Shown one piece after another: positions 3,358 through 3,632 of a DNA stretch of 26,996 nucleotides. The DNA is from Eledone cirrhosa (Eukaryota): NCBI GenBank assembly GCA_964016885.1, contig CAXHJY010001264.1, forward strand, positions 1-26,996, in the 5' to 3' direction. The notes under the pieces were generated by a model, which was not told the origin of the DNA, made no database searches, and saw nothing but the letters and a program-made list of their open reading frames with translations. The first letter of the stretch is position 1. Each line of letters begins with the position of its first letter. A program made the position numbers and the translations under genes.

Positions 3358-3632
3358 GTTTTAAATCAATATATCAATATGTTGATTTAAAACTGCACTA
3401 TCCACAAGTGTTTTTTAGCCTTCATATCATGTTCTCCTGTTTTATCTGATGAAAACACAAATATTATTGCATGATGATGTTTGTTTTTGAAATGCGCATA
3501 ATAAAATACATGGAACTCCTTTAACCATCTTTTGATCTTATATTATGTATACTCCAGTCCTACAAACTGTAGAGTGCTTCTTATCCGATATCTGCATTGC
3601 TTTATTGCACTACAATAAAACTCACCTCCTAC
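3358..3632 (+). mobile_element. HHR-bearing Penelope-like/retrozyme-like island in (TA)n
   Basis: Unique island bounded by (TA)n; small 5' hairpin at ~3359-3391; HHR at 3438-3508; downstream ACTC…TGTAGAGTGC motif. Confidence 0.6.
3438..3508 (+). ncRNA. Type I hammerhead ribozyme (predicted)
   Basis: Stem I TGTTTTAT/ATAAAATA; CTGATGA 3446-3452; stem II CAAATATTATT/GATGATGTTTG with G-U pairs; GAAA 3489-3492; palindromic stem III ATGCGCAT; AUA cleavage triplet ending at 3500. Confidence 0.75.

What the first reader, a model, noticed from the sequence alone, without database searches (positions are those of the whole stretch)
3438..3508. Complete HHR with long stem II and palindromic stem III (ATGCGCAT)
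All core nucleotides are present (CUGAUGA, GAAA, UH). Stem II is held together by several G-U pairs, which argues for an RNA rather than DNA hairpin. A self-complementary stem III is the feature that permits dimeric cleavage in minimal HHRs. Position 10.1/11.1 is not the usual G-C, so activity is uncertain.
Basis: partly seen in the sequence, partly recalled or inferred. Interest (0 to 1): 0.7.

Follow-up and report, generated by a model that had tools for sequence, protein, structure and literature searches.

The report
Penelope-type repeat with pair-working hammerhead
This is a complete hammerhead RNA motif inside one shortened copy of a very abundant, young repeat in an animal genome; it likely belongs to the known self-cutting motifs of Penelope-like jumping genes, is predicted to cut only when two copies pair up, and cutting is untested.

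Summary
Confirmed and more than chance: a canonical-order type I hammerhead (core 3446-3452 and 3489-3492, AUA site, predicted cut after 3500) with 8-bp stem I, 15-bp stem II and an 8-nt palindrome as stem III. A diverged relative at 12537-12601 (minus) keeps all 11 core bases and 21 of 21 compared pairs through 13 changed letters. The motif lies in a 5'-truncated, solo copy (3377-3632) of a young, high-copy repeat inserted in (TA)n: 4,012 contigs of one run lie on it, and many copies end 43-51 nt behind the cut site. A10.1-U11.1 is the family state, not decay. Folding models give stem III only in a two-molecule double hammerhead. Best reading: a Penelope-like (pLTR or retrozyme-type) dimer hammerhead, a published kind. 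No tandem partner lies in this window, and cleavage is untested. One run shows 16 A>G/T>C sites absent from DNA-like runs, an ADAR-like signature on family transcripts. This scan reported the same kind on other DNA of this genome (e1-8670794, e1-9545524, e1-8664523). Whether the family is autonomous could not be tested. New member of a known kind.

The parts
3377..3632 (+). 5'-truncated solo copy of a young high-copy repeat, between (TA)n runs
   Evidence: 4,012 of 16,285,364 contigs of run X1 lie on 3362-3632; other copies go on upstream of 3377 with different letters (loose ends in X1, X5, X8)
3358..3393 (.). Short fold-back at the 5' truncation: 17-nt arms 3358-3374 and 3377-3393, one mismatch
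3438..3445 (+). Stem I, 5' strand (possible extension 3431-3435 with 3512-3516)
3446..3452 (+). Core C3-A9 (CUGAUGA)
3453..3488 (+). Stem II: A10.1-U11.1, 3 bp + C.U mismatch + 12 bp, 4-nt loop
3489..3492 (+). Core G12 A13 A14 A15.1
3492..3499 (+). 8-nt palindrome: 2 bp + tetraloop as monomer, 8-bp stem III in a double hammerhead
   Evidence: duplex -10.5 kcal/mol
3500..3500 (+). A17 of the AUA triplet; predicted cut on its 3' side (untested)
   Evidence: hammerhead numbering applied
3501..3508 (+). Stem I, 3' strand
3543..3551 (+). Region where many other family copies end in (TA)n; the window's copy runs about 80 nt further
   Evidence: loose ends at 3551: 32 contigs in X1, 33 in X2, 1 in X8; at 3550: 1 in X4; at 3543: 10 in X1, 8 in X2
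3551..3575 (+). Bulged stem (ACTC, 4-bp hairpin, 2-nt bulge, GAGT) just behind that end region; candidate start signal for reverse transcription (inferred, lead from e1-8671399)
   Evidence: 4 such stems in the window, 0 of 500 shuffles with 4 or more, but 117 of 500 with at least one
12537..12601 (-). Copy B: diverged relative of the hammerhead (C3 12593, G12 12556, A17 12545), ending in (TA)n 48 nt behind its cut site, in an island 12497-12755 with unrelated flanks
   Evidence: (blastn E 1.5e-4, 68% identity)

Best explanation
The motif is a complete type I hammerhead in one 5'-truncated, solo copy of a young, high-copy repeat inserted in (TA)n, likely mobilised by a Penelope-like retrotransposon (as its pseudo-LTR end or as a non-autonomous retrozyme-type partner), and it is predicted to cut after A3500 only when two copies fold into a double hammerhead. 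Shown: the core, the three stems, covariation, high copy number, (TA)n ends, 5' truncation with fold-back. Modelled: one molecule does not form stem III; two molecules swap stem I strands and join the palindromes into an 8-bp stem III. Inferred from the literature: in the parent element two motifs lie on one precursor RNA (tandem or two pLTRs), cut it slowly, perhaps with help from the element's protein, and release the unit that is reverse-transcribed into a nick in (TA)n. The copy at this locus has no partner in cis and is likely inert unless it meets another family transcript.
For: Descriptor: 2 hits, 0 of 1000 shuffles with palindromic stem III. Copy A versus B: 11 of 11 core bases identical, 21 of 21 compared pairs kept, 13 of 42 letters changed (5 pairs on both sides, 3 on one side); random placement keeps all pairs in 1, 10 or 78 of 200,000 trials depending on transition share. 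Within the family (X2): all 4 G-U pairs of stems I and II have a listed variant that makes them Watson-Crick (3439 29%, 3479 61%, 3465 0.5%, 3468 0.6%); of 9 listed changes at 0.2% or more in those stems 8 keep pairing; the only listed core change above 0.01% is at N7 (3450, 0.7%). Cofolding 3428-3520: dimer -43.9 versus two monomers -31.8 kcal/mol, palindrome pairs 0.89-1.0, swapped stem I 0.68-0.84. Copy number and ends. Published match: short palindromic helix III, long helix II, mostly solo copies in metazoan PLEs (PMC4209133); (TA)n targets, 5' truncation, inversion and one-sided tail (PMC8557442).
Against: No RT/GIY-YIG reading frame was seen next to either copy (six-frame look by eye), and the family's upstream part could not be read. 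G10.1-C11.1 and the extra base after A9, both typical of PLE hammerheads, are absent. All 26 Hydra-clade rows in File S2 of PMC8557442 have C15.2 and stem II of at most 7 listed pairs; this motif has U15.2 and 15 pairs. Copy B's palindrome is weak (duplex -2.2; pairing 0.03-0.09 in cofolding). In the whole island the lowest-energy fold breaks stem I and ties up the core. 3488 T>C (1.1%) breaks 10.1-11.1 unless linked to 3453 G, and 3433 T>C (31%) breaks the modelled stem I extension. The variant tables are filtered, not complete (3479 missing, 3418 missing). Copy B was picked by a structural descriptor, which biases the pair test. The extra 80 nt at the 3' end exceed the 30-40 bp tail of the papers. 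In Anolis Poseidon the hammerhead needs protein and is dispensable for insertion in vitro (PMC11167929).
Confidence: 0.7

Rival explanations
1. Same element, but the fold acts as a protein-assisted monomer, or is kept mainly as a binding platform for the element's reverse transcriptase, with cleavage slow or dispensable.
For: Anolis Poseidon hammerhead cuts only with protein, and catalytic mutants still insert (PMC11167929). Invertebrate retrozyme hammerheads with a 2-bp + tetraloop helix III cut as monomers at 0.1-0.8 per min (PMC7229834 passages). Copy B's palindrome dimerises poorly in the model.
Against: Both copies keep an even-length, fully self-complementary stem III through 3 changed letters; a monomer needs no palindrome in the loop. 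All catalytic bases are kept.
Confidence: 0.2
2. Dispersed solo copies pair in trans: transcripts from different loci form double hammerheads through the palindrome, and ADAR editing of family RNA damps cutting.
For: Thousands of near-identical copies; 16 of 38 listed changes are at 1% or more in X4 and under 0.1% in X2, all A>G (10) or T>C (6), 16 of 16 with U or A on the 5' side versus 35 of 67 unlisted sites (p = 1.4e-4); sense-strand sites include 10.2, 10.3, A17 and stem I.
Against: X4 is not on record as RNA and is another sample than X2; edits fall inside and outside the stems and on both strands, as expected of ordinary long duplexes between inverted copies (PMC5625713 passages); per-site levels are 1-21%. 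No RNA ends were seen.
Confidence: 0.07
3. Chance look-alike in AT-rich DNA, or a long-dead relic.
For: Folding z-score -0.44; no Rfam hammerhead hit; AT-rich stems.
Against: 0 of 1000 shuffles; covarying relative; family is young: 2,784 of 4,012 laid contigs are 95% or more alike.
Confidence: 0.03

Closest known systems
Minimal and palindromic-helix-III type I hammerheads in pLTRs of metazoan Penelope-like elements (Cervera and De la Pena 2014, PMC4209133; parts 1-2 of 4 read)
   Same: Type I topology, short palindromic helix III predicted to work as a dimer, longer than usual helix II, thousands of mostly solo copies.
   Different: Stem II 15 bp with a C.Y mismatch after 3 bp (published 7-8 bp); A10.1-U11.1 instead of G-C; no extra base after A9; no PLE reading frame shown here.
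Animal non-LTR retrozymes, above all axolotl HHR_Amex2 (Cervera and de la Pena 2020, PMC7229834, passages; Li, Clavereau and Pollet 2026, bioRxiv 10.64898/2026.07.22.740005, part 1 of 5 and passages)
   Same: 2-bp helix III capped by a tetraloop, non-canonical base of helix II (U.U in Amex2), better cutting as dimer, solo monomers exist beside arrays.
   Different: No tandem array at this locus; monomer length and circular RNA not testable.
Hydra clade of C-terminal EN+ PLEs incl. Hydra-1_Obim (Craig et al. 2021, PMC8557442; passages, File S1 sheet 3 and File S2 read)
   Same: (TA)n target, hammerhead near the 3' end, 5' truncation and inversion, optional tail.
   Different: All 26 Hydra rows have C15.2 and a 3-4 bp stem III; by eye the Hydra-1_Obim hammerhead does not resemble this one; two motif searches found no copy of its stem I-core or stem III in the supplement.
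Poseidon_Ac of Anolis (Frangieh et al. 2024, PMC11167929; parts 1-2 of 4 read)
   Same: Hammerhead followed by two classes of 3' end and a stem-loop at the start of reverse transcription; AT-rich target.
   Different: There the hammerhead is minimal, overlaps the start codon and needs protein; here no start codon link was shown.

Membership tests
Type I hammerhead ribozyme | Core CUGANGA, GAAA, UH in canonical order with three stems, stem I open | tested here: met
Type I hammerhead ribozyme | Stems supported by covariation | tested here: met
   21 of 21 pairs kept between copies A and B, 5 double-sided; the sequence-only alignment shows 1 double-sided change in 16 pairs and no excess over its shuffle control with two rows
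Type I hammerhead ribozyme | G10.1-C11.1 (highly conserved, not invariant) | tested here: not met
   A-U in both copies and in about 99% of family depth; exceptions are published (U.U in HHR_Amex2)
Type I hammerhead ribozyme | Site-specific self-cleavage | not testable with these tools
   no RNA holder on record; contigs cannot show RNA ends
Type I hammerhead ribozyme | Loop 1-loop 2 tertiary contact | not tested
   stem II of 15 bp puts loop 2 far from the usual place; not modelled
Metazoan PLE pLTR hammerhead | Short palindromic helix III | tested here: met
Metazoan PLE pLTR hammerhead | Unpaired base between 9 and 10.1 | tested here: not met
   register fixed by copy B; feature described
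Metazoan PLE pLTR hammerhead | Adjacent RT + GIY-YIG reading frame in full-length copies | not testable with these tools
   no genome held; none seen in either island; only 30 upstream letters shown
PLE-type insertion | (TA)n target, 5' truncation, inversion, one-sided tail | tested here: inconclusive
   (TA)n ends, truncation and a 17-bp fold-back met; two end classes seen, but whether 3632 is a fixed end was not tested and the extra piece is about 80 nt
Hydra clade PLE | Hammerhead with C15.2-G16.2 and 3-4 bp stem III as in File S2 | tested here: not met
   26 of 26 rows versus this motif
Non-LTR retrozyme | Tandem non-coding monomers, one hammerhead each | tested here: inconclusive
   solo here; no head-to-tail joint listed, but the laid stretches lacked the family's upstream part
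Non-LTR retrozyme | Circular RNA intermediate | not testable with these tools
   needs RNA work
Non-circularly permuted (type-SGC-like) hammerhead noted elsewhere in this genome | Scrambled strand order | tested here: not met
   order is canonical

The most novel reading that the evidence does not exclude
A family of thousands of solo hammerheads cuts by pairing in trans through an 8-nt palindrome, so cutting depends on family RNA concentration, and host ADAR editing of stem I, the base of stem II and A17 acts as a brake on the ribozyme; some of the family's G-U pairs are edits fixed by reverse transcription.
Probability: 0.1. Interest if true: 0.6.

Novelty: new member of a known kind. Interest (0 to 1): 0.27.

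Why it matters
As it stands it is one more dimer-type hammerhead of a Penelope-mobilised repeat, a published association. Its modest value: the family is young and abundant, Rfam misses the motif, and it keeps three departures from the usual design (A10.1-U11.1, a 15-bp stem II with a C.Y mismatch, AUA site) across diverged copies, so it is a clean substrate for the open question of what PLE hammerheads do and whether they need a partner or a protein. The editing signature would let one ask whether ADAR modulates a retroelement ribozyme.

Tried and rejected
Rfam: no hit at gathering score; snoRNA and miRNA matches at E 0.045-8.8 are far below gathering and rejected. Own genome: not held. Pattern scans: 0 in viral contigs, 2 in metagenome contigs, 1 in prokaryote genomes; none of the 3 folded as a hammerhead, rejected as chance. 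No RNA holder listed. Of 24 listed runs I laid 8. Runs of other coded organisms (X5 5 contigs, X8 27, X6 35, X7 28) hold the stretch at low depth with the same variants; relative or carry-over cannot be told, and raw DNA reads of organism C gave 0 of 12,836,656 (about 1 in 100 of the run; no test by the tool's own note), so no claim on distribution is made. The depth drop in X4 at 3500/3501 (6,936 to 3,988) and contigs of X6 and X7 that stop at 3500-3501 were rejected as evidence of cleavage: they lie 30 letters behind the variants at 3470/3471, where contig borders are expected. A loose end in X4 with four C at 3485-3488 looked like G-C covariation but carries the X4-only 3502 change and is read as antisense hyper-editing. 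Summed depth is not used as a copy number. Search of earlier findings by sequence and by nearby place: nothing. Luense et al. 2016 on dimer cleavage is not held; I saw only its summary in PMC6765202 (passages). No measured rate for A10.1-U11.1 was found (searches; passages 57, 60, 61). Searches for a description of this family in octopus papers gave only PMC8557442; supplements of other papers were not read, and those of the bioRxiv preprint are closed.

Full report
Setting. The window is AT-rich animal-type DNA dense in microsatellites (104 tandem-repeat rows) and short interspersed repeats. It looks like an octopus genome; that label is recalled from the look of the SINEs and echoed by earlier scan notes, not shown by a call of mine. 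No assembly is held.

Observation. Folding energy is not special (z -0.44) and Rfam finds no hammerhead. A descriptor finds 2 hits among 8 CUGANGA sites, both with self-complementary stem III; 1000 local shuffles gave 4 loose hits and none with a palindrome.

Covariation. The second hit (copy B, 12537-12601, minus) is also a blastn match of the island (68%, E 1.5e-4), with unrelated flanks. In register from the core, 11 of 11 core bases are the same and 21 of 21 compared pairs are kept although 13 of 42 letters differ; 5 pairs change on both sides and 3 on one; the mismatch after pair three is C.U in A and C.C in B. Random placement of 13 changes keeps all pairs in 1 to 78 of 200,000 trials. 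Caveats: B was chosen by a structural descriptor, and a sequence-only alignment of the two rows shows just 1 double-sided change in 16 pairs with no excess over its control. Within the family (run X2, shares) each of the four G-U pairs of stems I and II has a variant that makes it Watson-Crick (3439 29%, 3479 61%, 3465 0.5%, 3468 0.6%), 3453, 3457, 3460 and 3463 A>G give G-U, and 3488 T>C (1.1%) breaks a pair unless linked to 3453 G: 8 of 9 keep pairing, which is modest support because about 60% of transitions in stem II would do so anyway (my count from the pair list). The only listed core change above 0.01% is at N7. The tables are filtered (3479 is missing, 3418), so absence of a row is weak evidence. 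A10.1-U11.1 is the family state.

The element. 20 of 24 listed runs hold the stretch or part of it; I laid 8. In X1, 4,012 of 16,285,364 contigs lie on 3362-3632, 2,784 of them 95% or more alike; in X2, 3,298 of 17,142,217 on 3396-3585. I infer a young family of thousands of copies; summed depth is no copy number. Other copies go on upstream of 3377, so this copy is 5'-truncated, with a 17-bp fold-back at the break (3358-3393). Many copies end in (TA)n at 3543-3551, 43-51 nt behind the cut site (32 and 10 contigs in X1, 33 and 8 in X2); a subfamily leaves at 3533 (40 contigs in each). Copy B ends 48 nt behind its cut site. The window's copy runs about 80 nt further, to 3632. A bulged stem at 3551-3575 starts just behind the first end class; I looked for it because of e1-8671399. 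Four such stems lie in the window (3551, 9545, 17556, 18925); 0 of 500 shuffles reach four, but 117 of 500 have at least one, so the single stem is not significant alone. (TA)n targets, 5' truncation, inversion and a one-sided tail are marks of Penelope-like elements (PMC8557442, passages and supplement part 2), and in Anolis Poseidon the two end classes are the two start sites of reverse transcription at a stem-loop (PMC11167929, parts 1-2 of 4). No PLE reading frame was seen in either island and there is no second copy nearby.

Mechanism. Modelled: as a monomer, stems I and II form but stem III has probability 0.0; two molecules of 3428-3520 fold at -43.9 versus -31.8 kcal/mol for two monomers, with the palindromes paired (0.89-1.0) and stem I strands swapped (0.68-0.84), which is the double hammerhead. 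For copy B the palindrome is weak (0.03-0.09), and the whole island of copy A has a competing fold that breaks stem I. Inferred: in the parent element two motifs on one precursor cut it after A17, slowly, and the released unit is reverse-transcribed into (TA)n by a PLE enzyme. This is the published model for metazoan PLE hammerheads (PMC4209133, parts 1-2 of 4; review PMC6765202, passages) and retrozymes (PMC7229834, passages; bioRxiv 10.64898/2026.07.22.740005, part 1 of 5 and passages). AUA occurs in natural hammerheads and was the slowest of four triplets after purification; a long, interrupted helix II is known from sCYDV-RPV (PMC1636495, passages). That A10.1-U11.1 lowers but does not abolish the rate is recalled; my searches found no measurement. 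This solo copy is likely inert in cis.

Editing signature. In X4 (organism A, another sample, kind not on record) 16 of 38 listed changes are at 1% or more while under 0.1% in X2; all are A>G (10) or T>C (6), and 16 of 16 have U or A on the 5' side against 35 of 67 unlisted A/T sites (p = 1.4e-4). This fits ADAR hyper-editing in an unstranded RNA library, with G depleted upstream (PMC5625713, passages). If so, family RNA is made from both strands and forms duplexes; sense-strand sites include 10.2, 10.3, A17 (3%) and stem I. It speaks for the family, not for this locus, and needs matched DNA. The depth drop at 3500/3501 in X4 coincides with contig borders 30 letters behind variants at 3470/3471 and is not counted.

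Comparison and verdict. It works like the dimer-type hammerheads of PLE pLTRs and retrozymes. It departs from them in A10.1-U11.1, no extra base after A9, and a 15-bp stem II; it does not fit the Hydra-clade hammerhead pattern (26 of 26 rows with C15.2), so I do not file it under Hydra. Autonomous PLE versus retrozyme is open. Two paper searches for octopus hammerheads or ribozymes gave only PMC8557442 as relevant, and motif searches of its supplement found no copy, so this family seems undescribed in the held library, but the kind is known. Earlier notes of this scan report the same kind on other DNA of this genome, including long stem II, the C.C mismatch and palindromic stem III; these are leads, not support. 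New member of a known kind; interest 0.27.

Noticed in passing
window 12777-12965, 17314-17383, 18847-18950: (TA)n-inserted repeats that fold back on themselves and keep only the 3' half of a hammerhead (GAAA, stem III, GUC), followed in some by the bulged ACTC...GAGT stem; fits e1-9525717.
   Followed up: partly
window 1505, 1712, 3412, 19022 (+): A 15-nt motif TTTTTAGCYTTMATA occurs 4 times in otherwise unrelated islands (0 in 100 shuffles); twice just before a TA run, once 30 nt upstream of this hammerhead. Unexplained.
   Followed up: no
run X4 on window 3433-3547: ADAR-like A>G and T>C excess on family sequence, including a run of four adjacent T>C.
   Followed up: partly
window 9452-9529, 14243-14376, 17469-17627, about 1950-2030, about 14060-14140: Further short fold-back (palindromic) insertions beside (TA)n.
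   Followed up: no
window 2090-2273, 2477-2674, 7812-8003, 10004-10311, 18086-18500, 19084-19271, 26085-26197: A young SINE-like family of about 190 nt, 77-95% alike; recalled as an octopus-type SINE.
   Followed up: no
window 22300-22864 (+): 187-aa frame with a CxxC zinc-finger-like motif, recalled as the C-terminus of an L1/Tx1-type LINE; no family scan run.
   Followed up: no
window about 20330-20490 (+): 53-aa piece recalled as a mariner transposase N-terminus; no family scan run.
   Followed up: no
window 7083-7644: 34-bp minisatellite, 16.5 copies, 99% matches.
   Followed up: no
window 3389-3401 and 12609-12621 (-): Copies A and B share a 13-nt look-alike upstream of the hammerhead at different distances (about 40 nt versus next to the extended stem I); chance or deletion not resolved.
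   Followed up: no
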